Source: a virus
Taxonomy: Duplodnaviria > Caudoviricetes
Length of the DNA: 52,804 bases
Reading direction: 5' to 3' (one strand)
IMG/VR virus record: IMGVR_UViG_3300030098_003801
Span: 1 to 52,804 of that record
Shown: in pieces, positions 1-48,303 of the stretch
Position numbering within the stretch: the stretch's first letter is position 1
Layout: the number at the start of each line of letters is the position of its first letter
Program-made: the position numbers and the translations under genes
Notes under the pieces: generated by a model
Database searches by the model: none
What the model saw: the letters and a program-made list of their open reading frames with translations, nothing else
Told to the model about the DNA's origin: nothing

Positions 1-98
1 CATGTGGGACACCCCGTTTCGGGTCGATCTGGGTGCCTCGTGCAGGGTGTCTCGGACCCCTCTCCAACATGTGGTGGTCTCACCCCATCCTGATCAGG
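1..98. repeat. Terminal direct repeat, left copy
   Basis: 1-98 is identical to 52705-52802. Confidence 0.9.
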
Positions 99-130
99 AG
101 GAGCCCGTCGCCCCGGCCAAGCTCACCTCA

Positions 131-197
131 CGAAAGCCGGCGTTCGCCCGTTCGCGACCACCCCCCATTTTCACGCGAAAGCTGGCGTTTGCCCGTT
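131..197. repeat. Imperfect 22-nt direct repeat near the left end
   Basis: CGAAAGCCGGCGTTCGCCCGTT (131-152) vs CGAAAGCTGGCGTTTGCCCGTT (176-197), 20/22 identical. Confidence 0.6.
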
Positions 198-342
198 GAG
201 TTGGCTCCACGGTAGAACGCCGAATATCGAGGGGCCCCCGATCGCCGAGAGGCCCCCGAGGATCATGTCATGCAAGAGTTTACAACTTTTCTAAACCCGC
301 TGCTGGCCCGGCTCTACAGGCCCTCGCTCTGACCCGGCCCGT

Positions 343-361
343 TTGCCCCTACATCTAGAGT
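343..361 (+). promoter_or_regulatory. Putative early promoter/operator motif, copy 1
   Basis: TTGCCCCTACATCTAGAGT is 16/19 identical to 3781-3799; both are intergenic and precede a gene block. Confidence 0.35.
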
Positions 362-442
362 ATGCAAGAGAGCGTCCACATTCTGAATCTCTCTTCTTTT
401 CAACCGGGTCGTACCAGACCCACCAGCCAAAGGACACACACC

Positions 443-721
443 ATGACATTCTTCGACCTTCCCTCCGCTCTCGACGCCTCCGACATCACCTTCGTGCAGG
501 CCACCGCCAACCTCACCCACGAGGACGGCCTCGGCACCACCGAGCACAGGCACCACGACCGGAACCCCTCGGACTCGCAGGAGTTCTGCACGGCGGCCGT
601 CCACATGAAGCTGCGCGACCTGCTCGACGGCATGTCTCTTGAGGAGGCTCTGGCCGAGTACAACCCGAAGGGCGACGACGAGGTCACCCTGCTTCTGGTG
701 AAGCTGATCACCCAGCCCTAG
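443..721 (+). CDS. Hypothetical early protein, acidic, 92 aa
   Basis: AAGGAC RBS before ATG 443; followed by hairpin and ribozyme 1. Confidence 0.75.
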   Translation: MTFFDLPSALDASDITFVQATANLTHEDGLGTTEHRHHDRNPSDSQEFCTAAVHMKLRDLLDGMSLEEALAEYNPKGDDEVTLLLVKLITQP

Positions 722-743
722 CGGGCAGCCCCCTACGGGGGGC

Positions 744-792
744 GCTGTCGTGGGGAAGCCCACCTGATGAGCCCGATGAAGGGCGAAACAGC
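744..792 (+). ncRNA. Type III hammerhead ribozyme 1; predicted cleavage after C749
   Basis: GCUGU-C^; stem I GUGGG/CCCAC; core CUGAUGA 764-770; stem II GCCC/GGGC; GAAA 785-788; stem III closes with ACAGC. Confidence 0.93.
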
Positions 793-810
793 AACTAACG
801 AGAGGACGAC

Positions 811-1029
811 ATGGGACACACGGAACAATGGACGACGCGGCGGACGGCAGCATGGGTCATCGCCAAGCTGCGCGAGTACAAGGAAGAGGACATCGAGGAG
901 GCCTTCGGGTGCCCCGGCTGCACCATGCTCGACCTGCTCGGGTTTAACGCGAGGTCAGATGGCGACCTCGCCACCGCACGCCTCTGCGAACGCTGGTTCG
1001 CCAAGGTCACATCCGAGGAGGGCTGGTAG
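811..1029 (+). CDS. Hypothetical early protein, 72 aa, CxxC
   Basis: GAGGAC RBS; fills the space between ribozymes 1 and 2. Confidence 0.75.
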   Translation: MGHTEQWTTRRTAAWVIAKLREYKEEDIEEAFGCPGCTMLDLLGFNARSDGDLATARLCERWFAKVTSEEGW

Positions 1030-1051
1030 CCGCCACGCCCCTTCGGGGGCA

Positions 1052-1103
1052 CCGTCCGAGGCTGACCCGCCTCGCTGATGAGACTCATGGAGAGTCGAAA
1101 CGG
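1052..1103 (+). ncRNA. Type III hammerhead ribozyme 2; predicted cleavage after C1056
   Basis: CCGU-C^; stem I CGAGGC/GCCUCG, loop UGACCC; CUGAUGA 1075-1081; stem II GACUC/GAGUC, loop AUGGA; GAAACGG. Confidence 0.95.
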
Positions 1104-1122
1104 AACCACAGAGGAGACAGAC

Positions 1123-1473
1123 ATGAACATCGCATTCACCCGGCACGCATCCGAGCCCGGCATCACCATGACCTTCGACATCGAGACCGCAGTCCACACA
1201 TTGTGGGGGGGCGAGGGCGACGGCATCAAGAAGCTGCGCGCACTGGCCACCCTGCTTGACATCGAGATCCCGAAGGGACTCCGCACCATTCGCGAGGACA
1301 AATACTACTACGTCTACGACAACACCGGGGCGCTGGTTTTCTCGGACTACGATGACACCGTCAACGCCACACAAATGAAGGCCGCGTACATCGCCCACCT
1401 CATCGAGGAGCGCGCCAAGAAGCTCGAAGAAGATGAGCGCGAGGCCCGTTACGCACGTGCACACAACATCTAA
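1123..1473 (+). CDS. Hypothetical early protein, 116 aa
   Basis: GAGGAG RBS before ATG 1123; lies between ribozymes 2 and 3. Confidence 0.75.
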   Translation: MNIAFTRHASEPGITMTFDIETAVHTLWGGEGDGIKKLRALATLLDIEIPKGLRTIREDKYYYVYDNTGALVFSDYDDTVNATQMKAAYIAHLIEERAKKLEEDEREARYARAHNI

Positions 1474-1496
1474 ACCCCTCGCCCCCTTCGGGGGCA

Positions 1497-1551
1497 GGGG
1501 TCGTGGGCTGTACCGCCCGCCTGACGATGGCTCATGGAGAGCCGAAACCCC
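1497..1551 (+). ncRNA. Type III hammerhead ribozyme 3; predicted cleavage after C1502
   Basis: GGGGU-C^; stem I GUGGGC/GCCCGC, loop UGUACC; CUGACGA 1521-1527 plus extra U; stem II GGCUC/GAGCC, loop AUGGA; GAAACCCC. Confidence 0.9.
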
Positions 1552-1576
1552 GTCAGTCACAACCAGAGAGGACATC

Positions 1577-2338
1577 ATGACCAACAGCACCTTCGACATC
1601 ACGATCAACACCGCCGAGATGGGCCCCCTCACGATCCGTGAGCACGAGGACGACATCAAGCGGTCGAACTTCGACGAGGAGGCCGTGAGCGACGAGACAC
1701 TGGCCCTCGTCATGGCTGCGATGGCAGCGGCCAAGGCCACCGGCGAGAGCGTCACCATCAACACCAGCCCTGACCGTGGCGTCACCGTCGCGCCTGTCGC
1801 GCCCCTCTTCGACGAGGAGTGCATCGCTTGGAGCAAGGGGCATGCCGGACGCGGGCACCGCGTCGCGCAGAGCCACCGCGGAGAGGTCTTGCAGGACGTG
1901 CGCGCGGTCATGCCCACCCTCGTCTTCGAGCACACCGACTACGACGGCGTCGTGCGCCGCATCACGGTGGATGCCGAGGCCACCATCACCTCCCACGAAG
2001 GTGAGCGCCGCGAATACGTCTACCTTCGGAGGACCTTCACCGTCGAGCGTCAACTCAAAAGCGGGAAGTGGCATTCCCGTCGGAAGTGGACCCCCGCCAA
2101 CGCCTGCCCCATCCTCGATGTCGTCGAAGAGCACTGCTACGGCAGCGAGGACATTCTCTCCCTGCGCTGGAACTCTCTCTTCAATGCTTTCTACGACTTC
2201 AACAACGGCTACTTCGACGCCATCGCGAACGGCGTCAGCCAGATCGACAGGGACCACGCCTACGCTGTGCGCACCTCCCTCACTGGCTTGCGCGATCACC
2301 TCGACGGCGCGCTCGTCGAGTGGGAGGTGCAGGGCTGA
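1577..2338 (+). CDS. Hypothetical early protein, 253 aa
   Basis: GAGGAC RBS before ATG 1577; lies between ribozymes 3 and 4. Confidence 0.8.
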   Translation: MTNSTFDITINTAEMGPLTIREHEDDIKRSNFDEEAVSDETLALVMAAMAAAKATGESVTINTSPDRGVTVAPVAPLFDEECIAWSKGHAGRGHRVAQSHRGEVLQDVRAVMPTLVFEHTDYDGVVRRITVDAEATITSHEGERREYVYLRRTFTVERQLKSGKWHSRRKWTPANACPILDVVEEHCYGSEDILSLRWNSLFNAFYDFNNGYFDAIANGVSQIDRDHAYAVRTSLTGLRDHLDGALVEWEVQG

Positions 2339-2349
2339 CGCCCACCCTT

Positions 2350-2404
2350 CGGGGTCGGGCGCTGCTACGGCGCCCCTGACGAGTCCATCGAGGACGAAAC
2401 CCCG
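2350..2404 (+). ncRNA. Type III hammerhead ribozyme 4; predicted cleavage after C2356
   Basis: CGGGGU-C^; stem I GGGCGC/GCGCCC; CUGACGA 2376-2382; stem II GUCC/GGAC, loop AUCGA; GAAACCCCG. Confidence 0.95.
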
Positions 2405-2433
2405 TCAGCCATCAACCATTCGAGAGGAACAAC

Positions 2434-2976
2434 ATGACCAGAATCACATTCACCATTAGGGTTGACGGCAATATCGACTACCACTGGGCCCAGCGCATCC
2501 CCGACGGTGTGAACGCCCGCCTGTACGAGGACTTGAGCGACCTGATGCGCGGCTACGTCTACTCGCCCCAAGAGGTGGCGATCACCTACCCCACCACCTG
2601 CGGACCCAGCCCGCGCACCGTCGTTACCAGCAACCGACGCCACTCCCGTAAGCACCTCTCCGACATGACCGACGAGGTCTGGACCTGCGTGCAGCAGGCC
2701 CTCTCTGCTGGCCTGCGCCCCGCCGCGGCCGGCACGGATGGGGGCATGGTTGGGCCCGTGTCCTTCCTGCCCATCACGAATGGCGCCGCCGTCGTGCGCA
2801 TCCACGATCGGTATGATGCCGGTAATGTCGTCAGCTACATCGCCGCCAGCGAGGACGACTGCCGGTGCAACCTCTCCCGCGCCGCGTACCAGTGCGCACT
2901 GGAACAGGGCGACACCGTCACCATGGGCTGCGTCATCGCCGAGCCCGTGCGCAGCGCTCAGGGAGGTGCGGCATGA
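2434..2976 (+). CDS. Hypothetical early protein, 180 aa
   Basis: GAGGA RBS; ends in an ATGA overlap with the next ORF. Confidence 0.75.
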   Translation: MTRITFTIRVDGNIDYHWAQRIPDGVNARLYEDLSDLMRGYVYSPQEVAITYPTTCGPSPRTVVTSNRRHSRKHLSDMTDEVWTCVQQALSAGLRPAAAGTDGGMVGPVSFLPITNGAAVVRIHDRYDAGNVVSYIAASEDDCRCNLSRAAYQCALEQGDTVTMGCVIAEPVRSAQGGAA

Positions 2977-3095
2977 GAGACCCCTACTTCAGCGACGAGA
3001 CCGTCGCCGCCTTCGTCTTCATCTTCGGCACCCCGTGGCTGGCAGCCCTGACTGTGCTCACTGTGAGCCTGCTGCTCGAAGGGGGTGCAGCATGA
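2973..3095 (+). CDS. Small membrane protein, 40 aa
   Basis: GGAGGT RBS, ATGA overlap, one hydrophobic segment. Confidence 0.6.
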   Translation: MRDPYFSDETVAAFVFIFGTPWLAALTVLTVSLLLEGGAA

Positions 3096-3328
3096 GCCTG
3101 TACGGACACAGCTTCAACGACTTCAGAACCCAGACGAACAACGACATCGTCGAGGCGCACAGCGACAAGCCCGCGCACGAGTGCAGGGCCTGCCGAGGCC
3201 GCGGCTGGTGGCTGTCGGACTACGACACATGGGAGACGTGCCCCCTCCACTACACGGGGCAGCCAGACCCCGAGACTGCGATGGCGGATCACGAGGCGGC
3301 CGAGCGTGATCGGGGAGGTGACGCATGA
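3092..3328 (+). CDS. Small zinc-finger-like protein, 78 aa
   Basis: CRACRGRG...CPLH motif; ATGA-coupled at both ends. Confidence 0.65.
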   Translation: MSLYGHSFNDFRTQTNNDIVEAHSDKPAHECRACRGRGWWLSDYDTWETCPLHYTGQPDPETAMADHEAAERDRGGDA

Positions 3329-3534
3329 AACCCACCTACCTGCACTACACCTTCCGCGTCCGCATTGACCACAAGGCTGACTTGGCCGAAGCCCTTGAGG
3401 CTGGCCAGCAAGCTATGGACACCGTGGCCACCGCCCTTGAGATGCACTGCATCGGCGTCGAGTCGAGCACCGAGGAAATCGAGCAGAGCCTCACCGTCGA
3501 GGCGCGCGACCTTCCCCACGGAGGTGACGCATGA
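3325..3534 (+). CDS. Hypothetical protein, 69 aa
   Basis: GGAGGT RBS and ATGA coupling. Confidence 0.65.
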   Translation: MKPTYLHYTFRVRIDHKADLAEALEAGQQAMDTVATALEMHCIGVESSTEEIEQSLTVEARDLPHGGDA

Positions 3535-3629
3535 GAGACCTACGCTACGAGGCCGCCGCTTGGCTCCTCGCGATCGTCTGCTGGGCAGTTACAATGTACT
3601 TCTATTCACAACTCGGAGGTGCAGCATGA
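3531..3629 (+). CDS. Small membrane peptide, 32 aa (not in ORF track)
   Basis: MRDLRYEAAAWLLAIVCWAVTMYFYSQLGGAA; GGAGGT RBS; ATGA-coupled at both ends. Confidence 0.6.
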   Translation: MRDLRYEAAAWLLAIVCWAVTMYFYSQLGGAA

Positions 3630-3772
3630 GCAGGCGCAAGCGACAGGCCCCACCGAAGCGACGCAACGCCGTCGTGCAGGCCATGAAGTCACGCTCCGCC
3701 AAGGCGGGGTACCACACCGACAGGAAGAAGGAGGCCAAGCGGCGAGCCTGTCGCCAGAAGTACCGGGTGTGA
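3626..3772 (+). CDS. Small highly basic protein, 48 aa
   Basis: GGAGGT RBS; MSRRKRQAPPKRRNAVV...HTDRKKEAKRR. Confidence 0.65.
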   Translation: MSRRKRQAPPKRRNAVVQAMKSRSAKAGYHTDRKKEAKRRACRQKYRV

Positions 3773-3780
3773 TCATATTG

Positions 3781-3799
3781 TTGCCCCCATATCTTGAGT
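3781..3799 (+). promoter_or_regulatory. Putative early promoter/operator motif, copy 2
   Basis: TTGCCCCCATATCTTGAGT, 16/19 identical to 343-361. Confidence 0.35.
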
Positions 3800-3849
3800 C
3801 AGTTAACCACGGTGTGCCGGCACCAAACCACCCGGCAGGAGGATACATC

Positions 3850-4191
3850 ATGAAGACGAACGACCTAGCCTACCTCACGCACAACGAGGACGAAGGCATC
3901 TGCATTCACGGCACCCACAAGCAGGGCACCCTGACCGGCATCACTTACAACCAACTGTACCTCGCCTTCGGGGGTCACATCTGGGTGGAGGGCCCCGATC
4001 AGGTGGACTGGTCATGGAACATTGAGTTCCCCTGCGGCACCGTGGCTACGGTGTACAACTGGAAGAACGGTCCCAACTACTGCGGCGCCGCTGGCATGAA
4101 CCGCTATCAGGTCACGACGTGGAACGTCGGGGGCAACAGCGCCGAAGCGTGGCACCTCGTCAAGGCTGCGCTCGAAGGAGGTGCAGCATGA
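3850..4191 (+). CDS. Hypothetical phage protein, 113 aa
   Basis: AGGAGG RBS before ATG 3850. Confidence 0.75.
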   Translation: MKTNDLAYLTHNEDEGICIHGTHKQGTLTGITYNQLYLAFGGHIWVEGPDQVDWSWNIEFPCGTVATVYNWKNGPNYCGAAGMNRYQVTTWNVGGNSAEAWHLVKAALEGGAA

Positions 4192-4316
4192 AAAGCATCG
4201 CCAAGTTCCTCGGACTCTGGGAGGCGATCGACTTCTGCGACGCCTACCACCACGGCAACCTTCGCATCGAGAAAGAACTCGACGGACGCTACCACGTCTA
4301 CGACATGGGGGCCTAG
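4188..4316 (+). CDS. Hypothetical protein, 42 aa
   Basis: GGAGGT RBS and ATGA overlap. Confidence 0.6.
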   Translation: MKSIAKFLGLWEAIDFCDAYHHGNLRIEKELDGRYHVYDMGA

Positions 4317-4407
4317 ACATTCTCTTGACAAACCTGCCCCTCGATCGGGGGGCACCACTGATTAGTAGACAGATGCAGGAACAAACCACCTGCTTGGAGG
4401 ACATATC

Positions 4408-4662
4408 ATGAAGCCTACTTTTGAAGAAGTTTACGAGCACCTCGCGGACGCGGTTGACCCCGACGTGCTGGGCTACGCTGCGGACTGGCGCGCCTACGCC
4501 GACGCAGTGGAACGCTTCGTCGCCAAGGCTCGCGCCTTCGCTGACAAGCTGGAGTGCGGCGACTCGGATGTCGAGGAGCCCGCTGCGCCGCAGACCCCCG
4601 TGATGCCGCCGGCGCTCAACGTGCCGCTTCAAGATCAACCCGATGACTGGACCCTGTTCTAA
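4408..4662 (+). CDS. Hypothetical acidic protein, 84 aa
   Basis: GGAGGAC RBS. Confidence 0.7.
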   Translation: MKPTFEEVYEHLADAVDPDVLGYAADWRAYADAVERFVAKARAFADKLECGDSDVEEPAAPQTPVMPPALNVPLQDQPDDWTLF

Positions 4663-4672
4663 GGAGGACGAC

Positions 4673-5299
4673 ATGGAAGACTCAAAGTACAACGACGGAG
4701 GCATGAACCTCACCCGCGAGAGCGGGTGGGACATGACCCCGCAGGCATCCAAGTTCTTGCACGACCTGCTTCATGGCAGGCACGACGCATCTCTTGTGCG
4801 TGGCGGCGCTCGCCCCGGCAGGGAGATCGCTCGGGCGTACATCATCAGGGATAAGCGCACTGAGAATCCAGCGGGCGAAGTGCTCGTCACTCTGGATGTG
4901 TGCGTCGAGTACCAGAAGACGATCGCCCAACGCTTCCGCGGCACGGCGACTCGCGCGAACATCAGGGCCCACTTCGATGTCGAGGCATGGAAGGAGTGGG
5001 AGAACTTCAGCGACCCCTGCGAGCCCACCTTTGAGCTTGGCAGGTTGTGCGAGGAGGACCAGCTTACGGCGCTCACCGTGTTTGGAGTCAAGGAGGTACA
5101 CGCCTCTCTCTTCTTCGCCGAGGAGATGCCGAGGGGCAGCACGCGCTACGAGGTTCACGCTCGTCACGTTGACGGCGCCTTCCGTTTCTTCTTCAGCTAC
5201 GCGCACAACCAGCCAGCACCGGGCAAGCCAGTCGTGCCCCAAGTTCCAATCCCAACCCCCGTCGCCGTTGTTTCTGATGACGACGACCTGCCGTTCTAG
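4673..5299 (+). CDS. Hypothetical protein with SSB-like acidic tail
   Basis: AAGGAGG RBS; ends SDDDDLPF after a Pro-rich linker. Confidence 0.7.
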   Translation: MEDSKYNDGGMNLTRESGWDMTPQASKFLHDLLHGRHDASLVRGGARPGREIARAYIIRDKRTENPAGEVLVTLDVCVEYQKTIAQRFRGTATRANIRAHFDVEAWKEWENFSDPCEPTFELGRLCEEDQLTALTVFGVKEVHASLFFAEEMPRGSTRYEVHARHVDGAFRFFFSYAHNQPAPGKPVVPQVPIPTPVAVVSDDDDLPF

Positions 5300-5307
5300 G
5301 AGGACGC

Positions 5308-5490
5308 ATGCTTACCGATGATCAGAGTGAGAAACTGGAGCGCGTCAGTCGCATGCTTTACGAAGTGTGCGAGGCGCTCCCCGATGTCAACCCCGCCGAA
5401 GTGGAGAAGGCTTTGGACCATGCGCACAGTGTGCTGCATGACATGCTGACCACTGACGCCATCGAGAGCACGAGGGAGGTGACGGCATGA
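5308..5490 (+). CDS. Hypothetical protein, 60 aa
   Basis: AGGAGG RBS. Confidence 0.65.
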   Translation: MLTDDQSEKLERVSRMLYEVCEALPDVNPAEVEKALDHAHSVLHDMLTTDAIESTREVTA

Positions 5491-5594
5491 TCTACCTCAC
5501 GGGCTTTGACTACATGCTCATGCTCACCGCCTGCTATTTCGGCGGCATGGGTGCAGTTCTTTTGATGCAAGCGCAGGAGAAAAGGGGGCGATAA
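5487..5594 (+). CDS. Small membrane peptide, 35 aa (not in ORF track)
   Basis: GGAGGT RBS, ATGA overlap; MIYLTGFDYMLMLTACYFGGMGAVLLMQAQEKRGR. Confidence 0.55.
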   Translation: MIYLTGFDYMLMLTACYFGGMGAVLLMQAQEKRGR

Positions 5595-5698
5595 GAAAAC
5601 AAGAAAGTTTGTTGCGCATCTGCGCGCCCCTAAATACAGGGGTCATGATGGCGGAGGGAGCGGCCACAACGGTTCCCAACCACACTTGAGAGGACAGT

Positions 5699-6670
5699 AT
5701 GTTTGACACTATTGACTACAACCACGAAGCCCCGGCACTCACTCTCGGCACCAAGGTTCCGACCGAGTCCGAGAACATTGTCGAGGCGCTCCTGTCTGCG
5801 GACATCCCATTCGACGCGCCCGTCAAGGTGCCGATGGCTTCCGTCCTACCCGACGGTGGCGTCCGGGTGATCCCCGACAGGTACAACCTGATGGATAGTC
5901 GCGGCCGCATCGTCGGTGAGAACGTGACCGACCGCTACACTCCCATCGGGTTCGGTGAGATGTTCGGAGTGGTGGACCACCTGCTGCACCAAGGCTTCTC
6001 CATTGACAGGGTGATCGACTTCAACGGGCGCCGGCTCTTCGTCAGCGTGGAGTTGACGCAGTACCAGTTTGACGTGACCGGGGACGGCGACCTCGTCACC
6101 CCGCACGCTTGGATCAGGGGCTCGCATGACAGTAGCTCTTCCACCGAGGTGTTCATCGCCCTCGGCCGTGGCTACTGCACGAACCAACTGGTCGCAACAA
6201 AGCAGATGGTCAAGCGAATGGGCCTGCCGCACATCTCCGTGCGCCACACACGCAGCGCGCCCGACCGCCTGCGGATGGCGGCGGAGTTGTTCTCCAACTG
6301 CGAGCGGATGATCATGAGCCAGAAGGAGATCATGCAGCGCTTCGCGGCCACCCCTTTCAGCGCCACCGCCTTCGCTGACTTGGTGGACAACCTGATCCCG
6401 CTGCCGGAGGAGCCACTTGAGGGTGAGTCCACCCGCGGCTACACGATGGCGGAGAACCGACGCGGCCTGCTCTTCGACCTGTACGAGTATGGGCGTGGCG
6501 CCCACTCTGGACGCGGCACCAAGTGGCAGGCGCTCAACGCTGTCACCGAGTACACCACCCACCACATCGCAACGCGCGGTGGGGACCGCGAGGAGAAGCT
6601 GTTCCTCGGCAGCATCGAAGGACCTGCCGCGAAACTCAACGAGCGGGCGATGGAGCTACTCAACGCATAG
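5699..6670 (+). CDS. DUF932/DUF945-like phage/plasmid protein
   Basis: SHDSSSS, CTNQL, RHT and GTKWQALNAVTEY motifs typical of this family. Confidence 0.8.
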   Translation: MFDTIDYNHEAPALTLGTKVPTESENIVEALLSADIPFDAPVKVPMASVLPDGGVRVIPDRYNLMDSRGRIVGENVTDRYTPIGFGEMFGVVDHLLHQGFSIDRVIDFNGRRLFVSVELTQYQFDVTGDGDLVTPHAWIRGSHDSSSSTEVFIALGRGYCTNQLVATKQMVKRMGLPHISVRHTRSAPDRLRMAAELFSNCERMIMSQKEIMQRFAATPFSATAFADLVDNLIPLPEEPLEGESTRGYTMAENRRGLLFDLYEYGRGAHSGRGTKWQALNAVTEYTTHHIATRGGDREEKLFLGSIEGPAAKLNERAMELLNA

Positions 6671-13086: not shown

Positions 13087-13281
13087 ATGATGAACTGTTG
13101 GCATTGTAATACCGAGTTGATTTGGGGTGGCGACCACGAGGCGGAGGACAGCGACTTCTACAGCATGGTCACCAACCTGTCCTGCCCCAAGTGTAGCTCG
13201 CTGGTGCTGGTGTACTCTGGCATCGAGGAGAAGATGCCGCCTGCGAGGATTGAACTGGCGGGGGACACGGATGGGGTTTGA
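13087..13281 (+). CDS. Small zinc-binding protein
   Basis: GGAG RBS; CWHC...CPKC. Confidence 0.7.
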   Translation: MMNCWHCNTELIWGGDHEAEDSDFYSMVTNLSCPKCSSLVLVYSGIEEKMPPARIELAGDTDGV

Positions 13282-15727
13282 CAGGGCCAACTGCAAGCGG
13301 TGTCCGCTTCGCAAATACTGGCAGGCCGAGGGCAAGTGGGAGAGGGTTGACTTCCTGAACAACGGCTCGGATGTTCTGGTGCTGGGTGACGCCCCCTCGA
13401 AGCAGGCGTCTGTTCTCGGCAGGGCGTGGGCCGATGAGCATGGCGTGGCCATGAAGGACGCACTCGAGTCTGCGGGCGCCAAGGCGCACGGCGTGGACTA
13501 TGGGTATGTGGTGGGGTGTCGCTGGCCGAAGGACGACCCTCGCATGTTCATGCAGCTACTCAAGAAGAGGAACCGCGCGTTGACCGCTTCGGGTAAGCCC
13601 GTGGAGCTATCGCCGACGGAGGCGTGCCGGGGTCACGTGGAGGAAGAGATGGCCCGGTACAAGACGGTGATCACCTGCGGACCAATCGCGACCAAGTCAG
13701 TGCTTCCGGGCAACCCCTCGTTGGAGGCCGTCAGGGGTGGCCCCACGGCGTCCGGTGACCTCAAGGTACTGCCGACCTACCATCCGTCACAGGTCGCCGT
13801 ACAGAGGCATCTGACGCCCGTATTGCACAGCGATGTGCAGAAGGCCATGCGCCACCACCGGGGCAGGCTGCGCTGGGTGGACCCGGTAGTGCGCTACAAC
13901 CCGCCGCCCGATGTGGTGCGTGAGTTCTTTGACGACGCGCGCAAGAACGAATGGGTGCTGACCTACGACGTGGAGACCGACGGCGTGGACGCCTTGAACT
14001 GCGAGCTTCGCTGCATAGGGATCGGCACGGACAACGAGGTTCTGATACTGGGCTTCTTGAGTATCGACGGAGTGTCAAGATTCTACTCGCCAGAGGATGA
14101 GCGAGAGATTAAACGCCTGCTCCGTGAGGTGTTCAATGATGATTCGGTTCGTATTGCCGGTCACAATGCAGGTTACTTTGATCGTCTGGTGTGTGAGTCT
14201 CATGGGCTAGGCACGCCCACCTCTCTGATCGACACCATTCTGCTGCACAAGCTGGGCGCGTCCGAGTACCGCCACAGCCTTGGCTTCGTAGGCTCTATGC
14301 TTACAGACGTTCCTGCGTGGAAGGCGGACCACGCTGGGGTGACCGCTCGGACAGACGAGGAGCTTCACGAGTATTGCGCTACGGATGTGGCCGTGACCTC
14401 CCGTATCATCCAGCCCCTTCTGGAGATGGTGTACGAGCGGAAGCAGACTCATCTGATCGATAAGGACTTGCAGCTTCAGAACCTCTGCGCAGGCATGCGT
14501 CGTATGGGGATGCGCATTGACGAGGGGACGCGCGCTCTTCACGAGGAGGAGCAGGCCGAGATAGCCTACGAGTGGCGCAGCGAGTTGGCCCACATTGAGC
14601 CAGACCTCAACCCCAACTCCCCGACGCAGCTACGGCGCCTGCTGTTCGACCGCTGGGGCCTGCCGCCTCACGAGTACACCCTGTCAGGCGAGCCCTCCAC
14701 CAGCGCCGCATCACTGCGGGCTCTCTCTATCAACCCCTTGGCAAGCGAAGAGCAGCAGGAGTTTCTTCACGCACTCCGCTTCTATCGTCGCGCCGAGAAG
14801 CTACTGTCCACCTACATTAGAAAGTTTGCCCCCGACGCTGGCGTCGTAAAGGATGGCTATGTTTACCCCGACTACAACTCGCACGGAACAGTTACTGGAA
14901 GGCTATCGTCCTCTAACCCAAACTTTCAGAACATACCTTTCAACCTACGGGATATGTTCATCCCTCCAGAAGGCTGCGTCTTTGTGGGTGCAGACTACGA
15001 CCAGCTTGAACTCCGATTCGCAGCGGCCTTGGCTGGAGCCCAGCACTACCTCGACGCCTTCGAGAAGAAAGAGATCGACCCCCACAACCTTACCGCGGAC
15101 CTCATGTTCGGAGAAGCGTTTTGGAAAGCGGAAGGAGCGCCGGATACCAAGATGGGCAAAGGCAAGGGCCAGTTCAAGCAACTCCGCAACCTCGCCAAGA
15201 CCATCTGCTTCGCGTCGCTGTACGGAGCCTCCGCCCCGAAAGTCCACGAAATCATCGGGCGGGCGGAAGACGAAGAAGGAAACATGCTTTACGCGCACTA
15301 CGACCTGCGGCAGATCAGACTGCTGCATCGTCGATGGAAAGCGGAAGCCCCGGAGTTTGAAGCGTGGTGGAAAGAAACCATGAAGCAGTTCTCCGAAGTG
15401 GGGTACGTCGAGGAGCGCGTGTGGATGCGCCGGCGCTACTTCGCAGAGGAGGACTACAACGCCATCCTCAACTTCGGGGTGCAGGCTGGAGGCTTCGCCG
15501 TGGTGGCGATGTCGATGCTCGAGTTGGTGGAGCGCATTCCGTTTGACTTCGACAACAAGGTAGGTCTGGTCAATCAGCTACACGATGCGGTGCTCCTGTC
15601 GGTCCCCGAAGAGCGGGCCGAAGAGGTCAAGGAGATTGTTGACGAGACCCTGACCCGCAGGGTCGACGGGCTTGAGGTTACCTTCACCGCCGAAGCGGAG
15701 ATAGGAACAACTTGGAAAGATGTCTAG
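13271..15727 (+). CDS. polA: Family A DNA polymerase with N-terminal UDG-like domain and 3'-5' exonuclease
   Basis: Exonuclease YDVET, HNAGYFD, YCATD; polymerase TGRLSS, motif A DYDQLELR, B RNLAKTICFASLYG, C QLHDA; N-terminal CKRCPL, GDAP, TYHPS. Confidence 0.95.
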   Translation: MGFDRANCKRCPLRKYWQAEGKWERVDFLNNGSDVLVLGDAPSKQASVLGRAWADEHGVAMKDALESAGAKAHGVDYGYVVGCRWPKDDPRMFMQLLKKRNRALTASGKPVELSPTEACRGHVEEEMARYKTVITCGPIATKSVLPGNPSLEAVRGGPTASGDLKVLPTYHPSQVAVQRHLTPVLHSDVQKAMRHHRGRLRWVDPVVRYNPPPDVVREFFDDARKNEWVLTYDVETDGVDALNCELRCIGIGTDNEVLILGFLSIDGVSRFYSPEDEREIKRLLREVFNDDSVRIAGHNAGYFDRLVCESHGLGTPTSLIDTILLHKLGASEYRHSLGFVGSMLTDVPAWKADHAGVTARTDEELHEYCATDVAVTSRIIQPLLEMVYERKQTHLIDKDLQLQNLCAGMRRMGMRIDEGTRALHEEEQAEIAYEWRSELAHIEPDLNPNSPTQLRRLLFDRWGLPPHEYTLSGEPSTSAASLRALSINPLASEEQQEFLHALRFYRRAEKLLSTYIRKFAPDAGVVKDGYVYPDYNSHGTVTGRLSSSNPNFQNIPFNLRDMFIPPEGCVFVGADYDQLELRFAAALAGAQHYLDAFEKKEIDPHNLTADLMFGEAFWKAEGAPDTKMGKGKGQFKQLRNLAKTICFASLYGASAPKVHEIIGRAEDEEGNMLYAHYDLRQIRLLHRRWKAEAPEFEAWWKETMKQFSEVGYVEERVWMRRRYFAEEDYNAILNFGVQAGGFAVVAMSMLELVERIPFDFDNKVGLVNQLHDAVLLSVPEERAEEVKEIVDETLTRRVDGLEVTFTAEAEIGTTWKDV

Positions 15728-21477: not shown

Positions 21478-21783
21478 TTAAGGAACTATGTCAAGGGCCG
21501 CAGGTGAAGCCGCAGCCGGGTGCAGCGCCATTGTGGCAAGCTGCATGGTGTCGTGTCCTAAGAGTCCGCCGAGAATAACAAGTCCCAGCAGAAGTGTTTG
21601 GGGGTTCTTGAGCGCGCTGGCCCAGTTTGTCTGGCTCTGCTTACACATCTCCGTAAGCTGCGCCTCAATGCGGTCGAGCGTCTTGACAGAGTGCTTCTGC
21701 TCGTTCTGAACGATGGCGAGAGTCTCGCGAATGCCGACAACCTGATCTTCTAAAGCCGTTACTCTGTGGTCTAGGTCGGACAT
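21478..21783 (-). CDS. Coiled-coil plus single-TM protein, holin-like candidate
   Basis: RVTALE...LDRIE coiled coil followed by LLLGLVILGGLLG. Confidence 0.5.
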   Translation of the reverse strand: MSDLDHRVTALEDQVVGIRETLAIVQNEQKHSVKTLDRIEAQLTEMCKQSQTNWASALKNPQTLLLGLVILGGLLGHDTMQLATMALHPAAASPAALDIVP

Positions 21784-24700
21784 TATTCTGATTCCTCTTT
21801 CTTTTCTGCCTTGTAGTCTGATTCCGCAAGGTCGCTTCGGCCCTGCATGGCGGCCTTGCGGCGCTTATGCGTATACTGGGCCTGCTGGAGTTCCCAGCTT
21901 ATGTTTCGAGTAGGGTTAAACATGTTGATGTATGTAACCTTTGCTAACTCATCCGCAGCCGCAATGCGAATGCCCGCGGGCCCGGTATCTTTATACTTAT
22001 CAAAGTCGATGCCCAACTCTTCAATCTTCAGGGGGAATCCGGGCTCGTAAACTTGTTGCTTGACCTTGACCTCTTCGGGCGTCAAGGGCATCTCCCCGAA
22101 GATTGTTGTTAGCAACAGGCCCGCGTACTCGGTTTCTTTTCCAGCCCAAGCGAGGGGGTCAAATAGTCCGTTGACAACAAACGGGCTGCTGGACACGTAC
22201 TTTTCTCCTCTCTTCTCCATAAGCCCTTCGAGCCCGAACATGCGAATGAAGGCCACCTCGCTCTCCTTCAAGGTGCGCGTTTCCTTTTTGCGGGGCACGT
22301 AAACACCGAAAGCCTGCTTAACGGTACTCCCTAAAATCGACTGATGCGTGGGGAACAGGGTGTCAAGAAACGCTCCCGAAAGGTCTCTCTTTGCCTGCGT
22401 GCTATTGAAGTGGAGGTCTCCCACAAAAGCCGCCGCAAGGCCCCCAATGATAGTCTTCTGCATCAGGGCAAACGTGTTCATGTTCTGCGCTACCGCCCAC
22501 GGGGCCCCGTGTCCGATGCTGAACGCGGTAGGCGTTGACCCCTCCTCTATCATACGGCGCTGCTGGTCTAGTGAGAGGGCCCCGCGCTGCGTCAGCATTA
22601 CATTGGTCAGATAGTCAGGCGTCTTGTAAATGCCCGGCCGTTTTTCAAGCGGGGGCTCCGCGCCCTCCAGTGTCATCACCACCTTGCCCGCCACATCCTG
22701 ACGGGGCCGCAAGATTGTTTCCATATGGAACAGCGCGCGCGCTCGCTTGTACCTTGTGCCAAACACCATTTTGTTGGTCAGGTGTCTGGCAAGTTGCCGG
22801 TCGAAACTAAGAAAGTTCACCGCGTCATTCAATAGCGCGTTCTTCTTGTAAGTGTAGAAGGCCGACCACTGCGTAAGCACCGCCGCCTCAAAGGGGCTCG
22901 TACTAAGGGTGTAGTCGAAGATGCTACTATTCATGGCGTCAGTAGCTTTGGATGTGTCCATTCCCTTGTTGAAGCGGAGGTGCATAAAGAGCATCAGCTT
23001 CTGCCTCCGAGTTGCAACAGCAGAGGTGGTGCGCAGGATGTCGAACCAATCTCGGTAAAGTTGCGCAGGGGTCGCTCCCTTCCGAGAGGCGCCAAGAGCG
23101 GGGATCATTCCCCTAAACTCTTGGTCTGCGGCGATGCGTAGTTCGCGCAAAGATTCGGAGCGAAGGTAGTCTTCGTTGACACCCGCTCTTCGCGCCTCCC
23201 GCATAAACTCACGAGGGTTGATGGTGAATGCCTCACCCCTTGAGTTGAAGTAGGTTCTTGTTTCATTCACGCCAGAGAGCACATCATCTAAGACCGCATT
23301 GTACTGCGACCCAAAGATGGTGGGCTCCGGCACTCCCGGCAGCTTGCCTGTAACTTTTGATGCGGCGGCGGTGGTCGAGCGTGCGACATCCTGCACCATC
23401 GGCCCGATCATAGGGACCCACCCCAAAGTTCCGTACATTGACAGTTGCGCGGCTTCCCTGTAGCCCACCTGAATGGCCATTCGCTCAAAGTCGCCCTGCG
23501 CATTGGTTAGGAAGAAGGCGACGGAGCGCAGCCCGCTGATACCAAACAACACGCTCTGCTTCCACCAACTAAGCGCGCCCCTAAAGGTTTGTCCGATGGC
23601 GGCCGCGAGAGGGTTGGTCGCCCTTTTTCCTGAAAGGGTAATGTCCAGTTTTTTGGCATTGTTCGCCAACTCTTTTGCCCACGCCCCCAACTCGACTTTG
23701 GGGATGATCCTCGGGTTGCCCGCCTCGTCATAGGAGTGCAGGACAAAGCGAACGTATCTATCTCGGGGCCGCAGCCAATCTAGTACGTTCTTTCCGGGGA
23801 TGTCCACGTCGCGCATCAAGTTCAAGCCATACACTAGATACCCGTCGATTAAGTCGAGGGTGCTTAGCTCGGCGCCAAACCTTGAAAGATCATCAAGGTT
23901 GTAAACCGACGTTTCACCAAACACATCCATGACCGTGACGACTGTGCGCTTGCCCTTCTTTTCGATCTTTAGAACCTCTAAACTAAGCGGAAACTCTGTT
24001 GCCTCCGCCGACTCAAGACCAAACTGCGGCCCTCGAGTTGCGCCCTCCACATCTTCAAACGCTCCTCTTGTCTTTTCCAGCCCCTCGCCTTCAACAGGCT
24101 TTCCTGCCAGCACGCGACGAACAGGGTCGATGCCCCTGTCTGGCGCTCCCTCCCACCGTTGGTCCGATCGAAGAACAACCCGGTCCCCTACCTCGATCGT
24201 CTCTCTTCGGGGCAGCACGCTCTTGCCCTCCGCCCCCGCCTCGGGCCTTCCAATCCGACTCTCCATTGCCCGCAAGTTGCGGATGCCGACATTGGGGCCG
24301 GCAAAGTTCGCCGCACGCTTAGCAAACTCAAACTCGGTCGCGCCGCCCACAATGTTGTCAAGCATTAGCCCAAACGTCTTGTTCTCCACAGTAAGAACTG
24401 CACCCGGCAAATCGTCGATGGGGCCGCGAGTAAACTTGCCTACGCCATTTTTTATCAAAGAATCGATGGCGCCATTTGCGAGCATTCTCAACCTTTCTTC
24501 CGGGTCGGCAGTCCGCAAGATGGCCTGTGAGTTTGTAATCGTCTCGTCTGCCTTCGAGGGTTTGTTGAGCCAGCGGCCGAACGTGACAGTTGCATTTCCA
24601 ACCCTTTTCGCCGGGCCCGCGTCTACCGCTTCTCGCACAAACGATGCTACAAACGCGAACATGCTTTCGGATTTTTCGCTGTATATTTTGGTAAGTTCTT

Positions 24701-44859: not shown

Positions 44860-45059
44860 TTCTCCATCGCCTTCATGGCGGCCATCTCCCTAAGCTGCTC
44901 TGGCGATAAAGGCTGATCCTCCATGCCGGCAGTATTTCTCGCCACAAGCTCTTCAAGGGTAGGGATAGGGATCCCCTCACTGGCCAACGTCGAGATGTTG
45001 GCGTCAAGCTTTACAATCATGGCCTCGGCCAAGGCCTGCTCTACAGAACTAATCTTCAT
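44856..45059 (-). CDS. Hypothetical protein, 67 aa
   Basis: AAGGAGG RBS; GTGA overlap with terL. Confidence 0.6.
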   Translation of the reverse strand: MKISSVEQALAEAMIVKLDANISTLASEGIPIPTLEELVARNTAGMEDQPLSPEQLREMAAMKAMEK

Positions 45060-48000: not shown

Positions 48001-48303
48001 TAACTCTTTTGCAAGCGCCCGCTGCCGAGCGTCAGCCTGATCTTGCAGCACAAGCCTTTTGTCTTCAGTAGAAAGCTGGTCAAAAGGGGCGTAGTGCGGC
48101 GCCTTTGCATAAGCTAAGGACCGGTCATACTCGGCCTGTTGACGACCCTCTTCGGAAGCCGCAAACTCAGCTTCCTCCGCCGCTTCTTTTGCGGCCCGGT
48201 CTTGGGCCGACCGCCGCTGTAGCTCAAGCTCGACCGCAGAAGGTCCCGGTTCTTTTAGGCCCCACCGCTCGAGTAGCTCACTAATGTTCTTAGGAGCCGA
48301 CAT
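45049..48303 (-). CDS. Large multidomain protein (1084 aa) with a possible DNA-glycosylase-like C-terminal domain
   Basis: HLGAWFD...LDVS...QDAVFHL module; WY, GPKIGTYGGNL, VTYDVWMSR, QALLW. Confidence 0.6.
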   Translation of the reverse strand: MSAPKNISELLERWGLKEPGPSAVELELQRRSAQDRAAKEAAEEAEFAASEEGRQQAEYDRSLAYAKAPHYAPFDQLSTEDKRLVLQDQADARQRALAKELGITLGKTRTVGGGSTTGKTEIRKPTAAEERASEQGIGYTGDLTTAPFGQMDLGADVVGGAVRAVKERPTLPAEIVAYPASVAGGVYDLVVQAMDDNPNLTPAQRRTGAVLAAAAFIPGGKAAKAADEAAEAAAEAAKAGTKAAKEGAEQAVEGAEEISDAALDVLRTGQGDEVLRALEELGYSPSQARLRVESGEGMPILEDPQRLRVRQSYIDQNLADIAKRRAQAESSPAAAREAAETTATADKPTYLSGILPVQEAPVSRNVRGLSDVDDAVQQGEEIARRAELDVGLAKDQRAVDIATLELPDAVRRFAQSRRYNLSPEETRELAETIRENGGVTYDMSKKTAEKTGYSVAPFKATELRLAPEEFTSDTLKAYVQTMEDLLDVDGVHLGAWFDGETNKYVLDVSIVAPNTPAGRLLAARLAKNGDQDAVFHLDTFDEIKTPDLEVEFGEEILQGATTPEYEAISQVLDRVTRRVSPEDTKGLAKQYRLKPQEVEEIRAFQEKMVRSRFKRGEEVAQDILDQYPNVQTPPAPLVAINLAAPEILKRSRASFTLKTISEDKNLHNILDATGKPYVPEGTKIQNNDVLSFLDDRFKKSTGATGPLDVDDPLTAMVAQNQLMEEFVSQLADTKEFLQWYTDDVREFLRISSEIFPELKTSEVHRMTLLNIASYTSNGVTPIENGRFALASYAELTQKGFMTGRNPFSLKDGMLAGYGTRGSTVQKGLALYNSRIRKLGLDGAARELLELNSKRGIREARQKSGFYSPDHQGPTHKVPIGTIMPNLYGNGPKIGTYGGNLMGVPGVTYDVWMSRQALSRVGYGRLMQKDGNVFLAGDATPNIVKQAVNSQRFAEGIYSNIAKATGFEDFQVQALLWFYEQRLYRTLGVGAASGKLSEGAAKFVRDLPNYRFLTPNGYAGTKVSPGGKGYPVAHGEQKARKAMESVRSPRTRAKPGEGDLAKQLKAERLAKKKSKKKQKEDTNED

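What the first reader, a model, noticed from the sequence alone, without database searches (positions are those of the whole stretch)
722..2433. Four hammerhead ribozymes punctuate consecutive early genes: a self-processing phage operon
Seen: each of the first four intergenic spacers has a complete type III hammerhead (GUC site, stem I, CUGANGA, stem II, GAAAC, stem III) on the coding strand at 744-792, 1052-1103, 1497-1551 and 2350-2404. Stem sequences differ between copies yet keep pairing, which points to selection on structure. Copies 2-4 have loop 1 starting UG and loop 2 ending A. Established: this loop pattern matches the loop-loop contact of fast natural hammerheads, cleavage leaves 5'-OH and 2',3'-cyclic phosphate ends, and T7 uses host RNase III at equivalent early-gene junctions. 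Inference: the phage cuts its early transcript into monocistronic mRNAs (750-1056, 1057-1502, 1503-2356) without host enzymes. Each product starts with a 5'-OH hairpin ahead of the RBS, which should resist 5'-monophosphate-dependent decay, like a natural RiboJ-style insulator. Isolated phage hammerheads are known; I do not know of a described gene-by-gene array, but cannot check the literature here.
Basis: partly seen in the sequence, partly recalled or inferred. Interest (0 to 1): 0.96.

Follow-up and report, generated by a model that had tools for sequence, protein, structure and literature searches.

The report
Four hammerhead ribozymes between phage genes
An uncultured marine phage carries a well-formed self-cleaving hammerhead RNA motif in each of the four gaps between its first five rightward genes; relatives keep this layout, but it is a further example of a phage arrangement first described in 2011, not a new kind of system.

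Summary
My own descriptor scan finds exactly four type III hammerheads in the 52.8-kb record, at 744-792, 1052-1103, 1497-1551 and 2350-2404. All are on the + strand, one in each of the first four spacers of the rightward gene block. It found none in 200 shuffles. Rfam's Hammerhead_3 model detects HH1 and HH4 (about 40 bits, below its 48.5-bit cut-off) and misses HH2 and HH3. Two relatives keep the layout: four copies at 85% protein identity and five at 58%. All three stems and a loop I-loop II pseudoknot covary. Self-processing of a polycistronic transcript into gene-length mRNAs is the best reading, but no RNA evidence was obtainable. The novelty claim fails. Perreault et al. 2011 described hammerheads flanking single genes in prophages, proposed this same role, and showed cleavage for triple arrays. 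I also found 3- and 4-copy arrays in other viral contigs. One relative has lost HH4 by an internal deletion. Lineage-specific alternative pairings compete with stem III and with the core. They are not general among phage hammerheads. Verdict: real, and a new member of a known kind.

The parts
443..721 (+). Gene 1 (92 aa, no known family), first ORF of the rightward block. It would lie on the 5' cleavage product ending at C749.
   Evidence: ORF list; no Pfam or PHROG match; homologue in L003 at 74% nt and 56% aa identity.
728..743 (+). GC-rich hairpin just after the gene 1 stop codon and 1 nt before stem III of HH1. It would end up near the 3' end of product 1.
   Evidence: Minimum-energy fold of the flank and of the 5' product.
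744..792 (+). HH1, type III hammerhead. Stem III 744-748 with 788-792; cleavage after C749; stem I 750-754 with 759-763 (loop GAAG); core 764-770; stem II 771-774 with 781-784; GAA 785-787.
   Evidence: Descriptor hit; RF00008 40.5 bits; minimum-energy fold is the hammerhead; 48 of 49 nt identical in L003.
811..1029 (+). Gene 2 (72 aa, no known family); SD GAGAGGA at 800-806. Predicted monocistronic product 750-1056.
1037..1050 (+). GC-rich UUCG-loop hairpin after the gene 2 stop codon, 1 nt before HH2.
   Evidence: also picked up as a bare hairpin match.
1052..1103 (+). HH2. Stem III 1052-1055 with 1100-1103 (only 4 bp); cleavage after C1056; stem I 1057-1062 with 1069-1074; core 1075-1081; stem II 1082-1086 with 1092-1096. 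Pseudoknot C1067-C1068 with G1089-G1090.
   Evidence: Descriptor; own model 69 bits (by construction); not reported by Rfam. The orthologous copy in L003 has different stems I and II that still pair.
1123..1473 (+). Gene 3 (116 aa, no known family); SD at 1111-1117. Predicted product 1057-1502. Its homologue sits after HH4 in L003 and L006.
1474..1501 (+). Extended hairpin. Its outer arm pairs with the 5' strand of HH3 stem III, competing with the hammerhead. After cleavage it would be a 3'-terminal hairpin.
   Evidence: -23.9 kcal/mol for the 5' product end.
1497..1551 (+). HH3. Stem III 1497-1501 with 1547-1551; cleavage after C1502; stem I 1503-1508 with 1515-1520; core 1521-1527; extra U1528; stem II 1529-1533 with 1539-1543. 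Pseudoknot C1513-C1514 with G1536-G1537.
   Evidence: Descriptor; minimum-energy fold alone is the hammerhead; 55 of 55 nt identical in L003 while flanking genes are 71-74% identical. In context the hammerhead fold is 10.4 kcal/mol above the minimum.
1577..2338 (+). Gene 4 (253 aa, unknown function); SD at 1565-1572. Predicted product 1503-2356.
   Evidence: 6 metagenomic homologues, none with a Pfam domain; model pLDDT 76 with no PDB fold match at E up to 0.001.
2344..2355 (+). Hairpin with a 4-bp stem and a UUCG loop. Its 3' arm is the 5' strand of HH4 stem III (an anti-stem III hairpin).
2350..2404 (+). HH4. Stem III 2350-2355 with 2399-2404; cleavage after C2356; stem I 2357-2362 with 2370-2375; core 2376-2382; stem II 2383-2386 with 2392-2395. 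Pseudoknot C2368-G2369 with C2389-G2390.
   Evidence: Descriptor; RF00008 39.9 bits; minimum-energy fold alone is the hammerhead. The orthologue in L003 has compensatory changes in stem II and in the pseudoknot. It is deleted in L006.
2403..2408 (+). CGUCAG just 3' of HH4, complementary to core CUGACG (2376-2381). The same holds for HH3 (1551-1556 with 1521-1526). This is an alternative anti-core pairing.
   Evidence: present in 8 of 13 copies of the lineage but only 2 of 71 other phage hammerheads.
2434..3629 (+). Gene 5 (180 aa; SD 2422-2428) and the next four ORFs. These are joined by 4-nt ATGA overlaps at 2973, 3092, 3325 and 3531, with no spacer and no hammerhead. They would form the 3' product from 2357 onward.

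Best explanation
These are four functional type III hammerhead self-cleaving ribozymes. HH2-HH4 belong to the pseudoknot-stabilised subclass, and HH1 to a short GAAG-loop subclass. They are built into roughly 90-100-nt intercistronic modules. Each module reads: stop codon, GC-rich tetraloop hairpin, hammerhead, Shine-Dalgarno sequence, start codon. The modules separate the first five ORFan genes of the rightward (replication-side) operon of an uncultured marine tailed phage. When the operon is transcribed, each ribozyme should cut itself 3' of its GUC (after 749, 1056, 1502 and 2356). That would release gene 1 on a 5' fragment, genes 2, 3 and 4 as single-gene RNAs of 307, 446 and 854 nt, and gene 5 with the translationally coupled genes behind it as the 3' fragment. 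Each upstream fragment would end in a stable hairpin plus a 2',3'-cyclic phosphate. Each downstream fragment would start with 5'-OH and the stem I hairpin ahead of its ribosome-binding site. The likely benefit is that the stability and yield of these fast-evolving leading genes are uncoupled from each other without any host nuclease. The repeated modules also mark the joints at which gene cassettes have been exchanged between relatives. Shown: the motifs, their placement, their conservation and their covariation. Inferred: transcription as one RNA, cleavage in vivo, and the effect on expression.
For: Exactly 4 descriptor hits, all on the coding strand in consecutive spacers, against 0 in 200 shuffles. 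All core positions are canonical. The extra U in HH3 lies at a position where an inserted base is tolerated, and where U raised activity 3-4-fold in the CChMVd hammerhead (PMC3705267, passage). RF00008 gives E 2e-5 and 3e-5 for HH1 and HH4 and is the only Rfam signal in the window. Layout is conserved: the 85%-identity relative L003 has 4 copies at the same junctions, and its whole 54-kb record has no other strong copy. The 58%-identity relative L009 has 5 copies in 3.2 kb, each starting 11-17 nt after a stop codon. Covariation: 9 of 17 pairs in 12 distinct copies. In 21 distinct copies that include 9 from 7 other viral contigs, 17 of 20 pairs covary, including 3 of 3 pseudoknot pairs, with 0 of 500 shuffles reaching the observed values (that alignment was fitted to the model). 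HH1 (48/49) and HH3 (55/55) are more conserved between the window and L003 than the flanking genes, which are 71-89% identical at nt level and 52-81% at aa level. Precedent: clustered hammerheads flanking single phage genes cleave during in vitro transcription and in E. coli, and the same processing role was proposed for them (PMC3088659, passages).
Against: None of the four copies reaches Rfam's curated cut-off, and HH2 and HH3 are not reported at all. With natural flanks, the hammerhead is the minimum-energy fold for only 3 of 13 copies. It is within 3 kcal/mol of the minimum for 5 more, and 5.7-10.4 kcal/mol worse for the other 5, including window HH3 (the energy model ignores the pseudoknot and Mg2+). 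HH2 has only a 4-bp stem III, and its fold alone is not the hammerhead. A close relative (L006) has lost 38 nt of HH4 while keeping both flanking genes, so at least that copy is dispensable. L003 and L006 have a hammerhead-free spacer at another junction. No promoter was located (0 sigma-70-like sites), so a single transcript is assumed rather than shown. The host is unknown, so the fate of 5'-OH ends cannot be predicted.
Confidence: 0.7

Rival explanations
1. Conditional (two-state) ribozymes. In this lineage an upstream arm next to the stop codon pairs with the cleavage-site strand of stem III, and a downstream CRUCAG pairs with the CUGAYG core. Together they hold the RNA in a three-hairpin OFF fold. 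Cleavage would then be slow or gated, for instance by a ribosome terminating on the upstream ORF and melting the upstream arm. The same pairings would later lock both products into hairpins.
For: The alternative fold is the predicted minimum for 10 of 13 copies in context. Nine of 13 non-redundant GGGUC-type copies have an anti-strand hairpin of at least 5 bp directly upstream, against 21.7% of 497 other GGGTC sites (binomial 3e-4). The loops differ between contigs (UUCG, GCAA, CUAC, CUCG) while the arms stay complementary, and a copy with a GGCGUC strand has a matching GACGCC arm. The anti-core segment is present in 8 of 13 lineage copies. The one copy with U at core position 7 has the matching A. 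Stop codons lie 17-32 nt before the cleavage site.
Against: This is not a general property. Among 71 non-redundant type III hammerheads from other viral contigs, 11 of 71 have such an upstream hairpin against a 15.0% background. Two of 71 have the anti-core segment against a 0.85% background. The lineage signal may therefore be shared descent of paralogous copies. Only one covariation event supports the anti-core pairing. Window HH1 and HH2 have separate hairpins that do not compete. The energy model omits tertiary stabilisation of the active fold.
Confidence: 0.12
2. Selfish or merely structural repeat modules. On this view the hammerhead-plus-RBS units spread by duplication and recombination and persist as cassette joints. 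Cleavage would be neutral or only weakly useful to the phage.
For: Gene order around the modules differs between close relatives. The window's gene 3 homologue lies after HH4 in L003 and L006, and an unrelated 159-aa gene lies between HH2 and HH3 in L003. HH3, HH4 and four of the L009 copies share stem III and 3' flank, as paralogues would. HH4 has been lost in L006. The flanked genes are non-conserved ORFans, as noted for other prokaryotic hammerheads (PMC6155905, passage).
Against: Compensatory changes keep every helix and the pseudoknot intact across 58-85% relatives. HH1 and HH3 are more conserved than the neighbouring coding sequence. All copies keep the coding strand and a fixed position between stop codon and SD. 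These points indicate selection on an active fold.
Confidence: 0.1
3. Circular gene-length RNAs. A segment bounded by two hammerheads with the same stem III can rebuild a complete hammerhead from its own two ends. It could then be ligated into a circle, either by the reverse reaction or by an RtcB-type ligase acting on 5'-OH and 2',3'-cyclic phosphate ends.
For: The window segment 1503-2356 begins with the HH3 body and ends with the HH4 5' strand, which are complementary over 6 bp. The same holds for 3 of 4 internal segments in L009 and 1 of 3 in L003 (my reading of the sequences).
Against: Segments 750-1056 and 1057-1502 cannot do this, because their stem III sequences differ. The shared stem III is explained more simply by paralogy. 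Perreault et al. looked for circular or spliced products of clustered phage hammerheads and detected none (PMC3088659, passage).
Confidence: 0.03
4. Chance look-alikes or inactive relics with no catalytic activity.
For: All copies are below the Rfam cut-off. There are no RNA data.
Against: 0 of 200 shuffles give even one hit. The cores are canonical, the layout is conserved and covariation is strong.
Confidence: 0.02

Closest known systems
Clustered hammerheads flanking genes in prophages (Perreault et al. 2011, PMC3088659; e.g. the Agrobacterium tumefaciens triple array around ardA, also Clostridium scindens and Azorhizobium caulinodans)
   Same: Several hammerheads lie close together on the coding strand. 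They bracket single genes or short blocks whose identity is not conserved, in phage DNA. The proposed role is cutting long phage transcripts into single-gene mRNAs. A loop I-loop II pseudoknot serves as the tertiary contact.
   Different: Here there are four (five in a relative) consecutive junctions at the head of an operon in a complete, apparently non-integrated marine phage genome. All copies are type III. The layout is conserved across a lineage at 58-85% protein identity. No cleavage data exist for these copies. I could read only text passages, not Figure 3 or the supplements, so larger published arrays cannot be excluded.
Other multi-hammerhead viral contigs found here (L121 with 4 copies; L041, L049 and L078 with 3 each)
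   Same: Type III hammerheads on one strand at spacings of roughly 360-1,400 nt in IMG/VR contigs.
   Different: Their stem sequences and genomes are unrelated to the window. Their gene context was not examined here.
HHphage of haloviruses HF1/HF2
   Same: A hammerhead lies just upstream of an early gene at the head of a polycistronic transcript. A mapped 5' end falls within 3 nt of the cleavage site (PMC3088659, passage).
   Different: It is a single copy with a variant core and a salt-dependent proposal, in an archaeal virus.
RNase III processing sites between phage T7 early genes (recalled, Dunn and Studier)
   Same: Intercistronic cuts turn one early transcript into gene-length mRNAs that end in hairpins.
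   Different: The T7 sites are double-stranded hairpins cut by a host enzyme and leave 5'-phosphate and 3'-OH ends. Here the RNA would cut itself and leave 5'-OH and cyclic phosphate ends. This is functional analogy only.
RiboJ synthetic insulator (recalled, Lou et al. 2012)
   Same: A type III hammerhead is placed in a 5' UTR so that the mRNA starts at a defined 5'-OH hairpin ahead of the RBS.
   Different: RiboJ is an engineered part derived from a plant satellite RNA and used singly. This is analogy, not homology.

Membership tests
Hammerhead ribozyme, type III (structural definition) | Conserved core: CUGANGA between stems I and II, GAAA between stems II and III, an A15.1-U16.1 pair, and a non-G nucleotide 17 at the cleavage site | tested here: met
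   All four copies have GUC, CUGAUGA or CUGACGA, and GAAA with the A-U closing pair. HH3 has one extra U before stem II, a position where insertions are tolerated (PMC3705267, passage).
Hammerhead ribozyme, type III (structural definition) | Three helices around the core, with I and II closed by loops and III open | tested here: met
   Descriptor hits give stems of 5-8, 4-5 and 4-6 bp. The minimum-energy fold alone is the hammerhead for HH1, HH3 and HH4 but not HH2.
Hammerhead ribozyme, type III (structural definition) | Helices supported by compensatory substitutions among homologues | tested here: met
   9 of 17 pairs and 17 of 20 pairs change on both sides. Slid-partner controls drop to 31-51% of cells paired.
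Hammerhead ribozyme, type III (structural definition) | [quoted passage not shown] | tested here: inconclusive
   HH2-HH4: a 2-3 bp loop-loop pseudoknot with covariation. One pair shows CG:5, GC:2, UA:2 with none unpaired, and 3 of 3 pseudoknot pairs covary in the wider set. HH1 (GAAG loop) has no recognisable contact.
Hammerhead ribozyme, type III (structural definition) | Mg2+-dependent self-cleavage 3' of nucleotide 17, giving 5'-OH and 2',3'-cyclic phosphate ends | not testable with these tools
   This needs a transcription and cleavage assay or end-specific RNA-seq.
Rfam RF00008 Hammerhead_3 (curated model, not the definition of the ribozyme) | Bit score at or above the gathering score of 48.5 | tested here: not met
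   HH1 scores 40.5 and HH4 39.9 bits. HH2 and HH3 are not reported at E up to 10. In the control genomes, none exceeds the cut-off either.
Gene-flanking hammerhead clusters of phages and prophages (Perreault et al. 2011) | Several hammerheads in close proximity that flank individual genes or short gene blocks in phage DNA, on the strand of the genes | tested here: met
   Four copies lie within 1.7 kb and bracket three single genes. The record is a virus record estimated 100% complete, with portal, terminase, PolA and D5-type primase genes.
Gene-flanking hammerhead clusters of phages and prophages (Perreault et al. 2011) | Cleavage products of the expected sizes from the native polycistronic RNA | not testable with these tools
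   Expected internal fragments are 307, 446 and 854 nt.
T7-type RNase III intercistronic processing sites | An imperfect double-stranded hairpin recognised and cut by host RNase III | tested here: not met
   The spacers carry three-way-junction hammerheads with a catalytic core, not long RNase III-type duplexes. The resemblance is in function only.

The most novel reading that the evidence does not exclude
In this phage lineage the hammerheads are two-state devices, not constitutive cutters. An arm placed within a few nucleotides of the upstream stop codon sequesters the cleavage-site strand, and a downstream CRUCAG sequesters the catalytic core. Cutting would then be licensed only when a ribosome terminating on the upstream gene opens the OFF fold. 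After the cut, the same pairings would expel the products and cap both new ends with hairpins. Processing of each junction would thus be coupled to translation of the gene before it.
Probability: 0.1. Interest if true: 0.7.

Novelty: new member of a known kind. Interest (0 to 1): 0.42.

Why it matters
What hammerheads do in phage DNA is still described as an open question (PMC6765202 and PMC6155905, passages). This lineage offers a clean comparative case. It has a complete genome whose first four junctions carry ribozymes while the next four are 4-nt translational overlaps. Its relatives carry four or five copies with compensatory changes, one natural relative has a ribozyme deleted, and gene cassettes are swapped around conserved ribozyme modules. 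That makes specific predictions easy to test in vitro: fragment sizes, end chemistry, and the effect of the flanking hairpins. It does not change the picture that phages use self-cleaving RNAs between genes. The host is unknown, so in vivo tests are not yet possible.

Tried and rejected
Searches for cultured relatives by DNA found no match (megablast and blastn of 1-6000; blastn of the HH3 region). Protein searches with PolA and the large terminase found only hits below 30% identity. Single-protein scans of viral contigs with the DUF932 protein and with gene 4 found nothing; the alignment-based scans worked. A scan of prokaryotic genome contigs for the DUF932 family found no relative, so there is no host clue.

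RNA evidence: no RNA holder was listed for 400-3000. The one run listed (X1, kind unknown, contigs only, share 0.22) gave 11 short low-depth contigs. One spans HH4 (2287-2428). Two stop at 1058, where related strains diverge. I draw no conclusion from this.

Function of the flanked genes: there were no Pfam or PHROG matches for genes 1-5, and the Atlas gave no usable hit for gene 5. The gene 4 model (pLDDT 76, 8-row alignment) had 0 PDB matches at E up to 0.001, with best TM about 0.27. No phage RNA polymerase was recognised among the large ORFs.

Generality of the alternative pairings was tested and rejected. The upstream anti-stem III hairpin occurs in 11 of 71 other hammerheads against a 15.0% background. 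The anti-core segment occurs in 2 of 71 against 0.85%. The per-site shuffle test was uninformative because shuffling kept the C-rich composition.

Searching with my model R1, filters off, found no further or degenerate copies in the window: the next best score is 11.1 bits. It also found none in L004-L006, L008 or L010-L015, nor in the partial records G002 and G003. L006 and L009 could not be searched as whole records because they are not held.

Literature searches for a description of the anti-stem III hairpin, or of 5'-OH stabilisation by phage ribozymes, returned nothing relevant. These were keyword searches of open-access text only. Supplements are closed, so Figure 3, Figures S1-S5 and Dataset S1 of PMC3088659 were not seen.


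Full report
WHAT THE WINDOW IS. The window is a whole IMG/VR virus record of 52,804 bases, estimated 100% complete, with 58.7% G+C. Bases 1-98 repeat exactly at 52705-52802, so the record closes on itself or has a short terminal repeat. Rightward (+) genes run from 443 to about 17.7 kb. They include a DUF932 protein, an SNF2-type helicase, a PD-(D/E)XK nuclease and a family A DNA polymerase carrying a UDG-like domain. Leftward genes encode the portal, the large terminase, an adaptor and a D5-type primase-helicase. No cultured phage is close: there is no DNA match, and the polymerase and terminase are below 30% identical to any cultured phage protein. Relatives come from marine metagenomes. The host is unknown.

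THE OBSERVATION. Reading the sequence and scanning it with a descriptor I wrote gives exactly four type III hammerheads in both strands of the record. No hit appeared in 200 shuffled sequences. Each copy has GUC at the cleavage site, a closed stem I, CUGAUGA or CUGACGA, a closed stem II, GAAA, and an open stem III closed by the A-U pair. HH3 has one extra U before stem II. An inserted base at that position is known from the chrysanthemum chlorotic mottle viroid hammerhead, where U increased activity (PMC3705267, passage).

Rfam's Hammerhead_3 model recognises HH1 and HH4 at about 40 bits. These are the only Rfam matches with E up to 0.1 in the window. Neither reaches the curated 48.5 bits, and HH2 and HH3 are not reported at all. 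Folded alone, three of the four give the hammerhead as the minimum-energy structure. A covariance model built from the lineage's copies, run without filters, finds the four copies at 57-77 bits and nothing else above 11 bits. This shows there are no further copies. It is not independent support, because the model was built from these sequences.

PLACEMENT. The four copies occupy the first four spacers of the rightward block (89, 93, 103 and 95 nt). The cleavage site lies 18-29 nt after the upstream stop codon and 61-77 nt before the next start codon, and a GAGAGGA-type Shine-Dalgarno sequence follows each ribozyme. From gene 5 onward the next four junctions are 4-nt ATGA overlaps with no spacer. 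The five leading genes have no Pfam or PHROG family.

RELATIVES. I searched viral and metagenome contigs with an alignment of the nearby DUF932 protein.
- A relative at 85% protein identity (L003, a complete 54-kb record) has four hammerheads at the corresponding junctions and no other strong copy in the genome.
- A relative at 58% identity (L009) has five copies in 3.2 kb, each starting 11-17 nt after a stop codon.
- Between the window and L003, HH1 is 48/49 identical and HH3 55/55 identical, while the flanking genes are 71-89% identical in DNA and 52-81% in protein.
- HH2 and HH4 differ between the two genomes by changes that preserve pairing.

Counted on 12 distinct copies, 9 of 17 stem pairs change on both sides, and 88.9% of cells pair against 69.8% in shuffles. 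Adding 9 copies from 7 unrelated viral contigs found by a pattern scan raises this to 17 of 20 pairs. That alignment was fitted to the model, which favours pairing. The 3' end of loop I pairs with loop II in HH2-HH4 and their relatives, with CG, GC and UA at one position and none unpaired. All three pseudoknot pairs covary in the wider set. This is the pseudoknot contact that Perreault et al. found in about 40% of hammerheads and showed to be needed for fast cleavage (PMC3088659, passages). HH1 and two L003 copies have a 4-nt GAAG loop and no evident contact.

EVIDENCE THAT CUTS THE OTHER WAY.
- A second close relative (L006, 86% identity) has a 38-nt internal deletion that removes the cleavage site, stem I, the core and half of stem II of HH4. 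The genes on both sides are intact.
- L003 and L006 also have one spacer without any hammerhead.
- Gene order around the modules differs. The homologue of window gene 3 follows HH4 in L003 and L006, and an unrelated gene sits between HH2 and HH3 in L003. The modules therefore behave as cassette joints.
- With 35 nt of natural upstream flank and 14 nt downstream, the hammerhead is the minimum-energy fold for 3 of 13 copies. It is within 3 kcal/mol of the minimum for 5, and 5.7-10.4 kcal/mol worse for 5, including window HH3.

The competing fold pairs the cleavage-site strand with an arm just after the stop codon, and pairs the CUGAYG core with a CRUCAG just 3' of stem III. Within the GGGUC-type subfamily the upstream hairpin is enriched: 9 of 13 against 21.7% of 497 control sites. 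I then tested 71 non-redundant type III hammerheads with other stem III sequences from 102 further viral loci. Neither feature is enriched there: 11 of 71 against 15.0%, and 2 of 71 against 0.85%. These pairings are therefore lineage-specific. They may reflect common descent, 3'-end hairpins for the upstream product, or a real switch. I cannot tell which.

MECHANISM. The best-supported reading is that the rightward leading operon is transcribed through these spacers and each ribozyme cuts itself. This would yield gene 1 on the 5' fragment, genes 2-4 as 307-, 446- and 854-nt RNAs, and gene 5 with its translationally coupled followers as the 3' fragment. Upstream products would end in GC-rich tetraloop hairpins, and downstream products would begin with the stem I hairpin. 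The motifs, their placement, their conservation and their covariation are shown. Co-transcription, cleavage and any effect on stability are inferred. The claim that 5'-OH ends protect the mRNA rests on recalled knowledge of 5'-monophosphate sensing by RNase E. It is countered by the recalled case of RNase J1 degrading the 5'-OH glmS product. With an unknown host it stays open.

COMPARISON WITH WHAT IS KNOWN. Perreault et al. [quoted passage not shown] They showed the expected products for three arrays in vitro and for the Agrobacterium triple array in E. coli, and they found no circular or spliced products (passages). A 2017 review repeats that hammerheads lie close together flanking small non-conserved ORFs and are persistently linked to phages (PMC6155905, passage). 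A 2019 review calls the purpose unresolved (PMC6765202, passage).

In my own scan of other viral contigs, 16 of 58 locus-strands with a hammerhead had two or more. Three had three, and one (L121) had four. The window is therefore a clear, well-conserved and rather large example of a known arrangement. T7 RNase III sites and the synthetic RiboJ insulator are functional analogies only.

VERDICT. The novelty claim is not upheld. The lineage-specific alternative pairings and the natural deletion variant are the parts most worth an experiment.

Noticed in passing
window 1-98 and 52705-52802: An exact 98-bp direct repeat at the two ends of the record, so the assembly closes on itself or the phage has a short terminal repeat, although the record is classed as linear.
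   Followed up: partly
window 52172-52470: Seven copies of the 8-mer TGTAGACA on both strands within 300 bp (8 in the whole window; 0.64 expected). They lie in the roughly 1.1-kb non-coding region between the leftward and rightward gene blocks and look like iterons or operator sites for an origin or a regulator.
   Followed up: partly
window about 129-152 and 172-197: An imperfect direct repeat of about 24 nt in the non-coding leader upstream of gene 1, seen by eye. It may be promoter- or operator-related.
   Followed up: no
L006 117-143: A natural 38-nt internal deletion of the HH4 orthologue in an 86%-identity relative. Only the 3' half of stem II, GAAA and the 3' strand of stem III remain, and the flanking genes are intact.
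   Followed up: yes
L003 4544-5023 and 5993-6367; L006 168-515: Gene cassettes are exchanged around conserved hammerhead modules. The window gene 3 homologue sits after HH4 in L003 and L006, and an unrelated 159-aa ORF sits between HH2 and HH3 in L003.
   Followed up: partly
L121 (reported cleavage-site coordinates 3115, 3518, 4895, 5550, + strand); L041, L049, L078: Other IMG/VR contigs with four or three type III hammerheads on one strand at gene-length spacing. In L121 the copies share an upstream flank. Their gene context was not examined.
   Followed up: no
window 13127-15727: The family A DNA polymerase carries a UDG-superfamily domain at its N-terminus (residues 75-227), ahead of the 3'-5' exonuclease and polymerase domains.
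   Followed up: no
window 21783-28673 (-) and 45049-48303 (-): Very large ORFs of 2296 aa and 1084 aa with no Pfam match at E up to 0.01.
   Followed up: no
window 2973, 3092, 3325, 3531: Four consecutive ATGA stop-start overlaps immediately after the hammerhead-separated genes. This is a sharp switch from spaced junctions to translationally coupled ones.
   Followed up: partly
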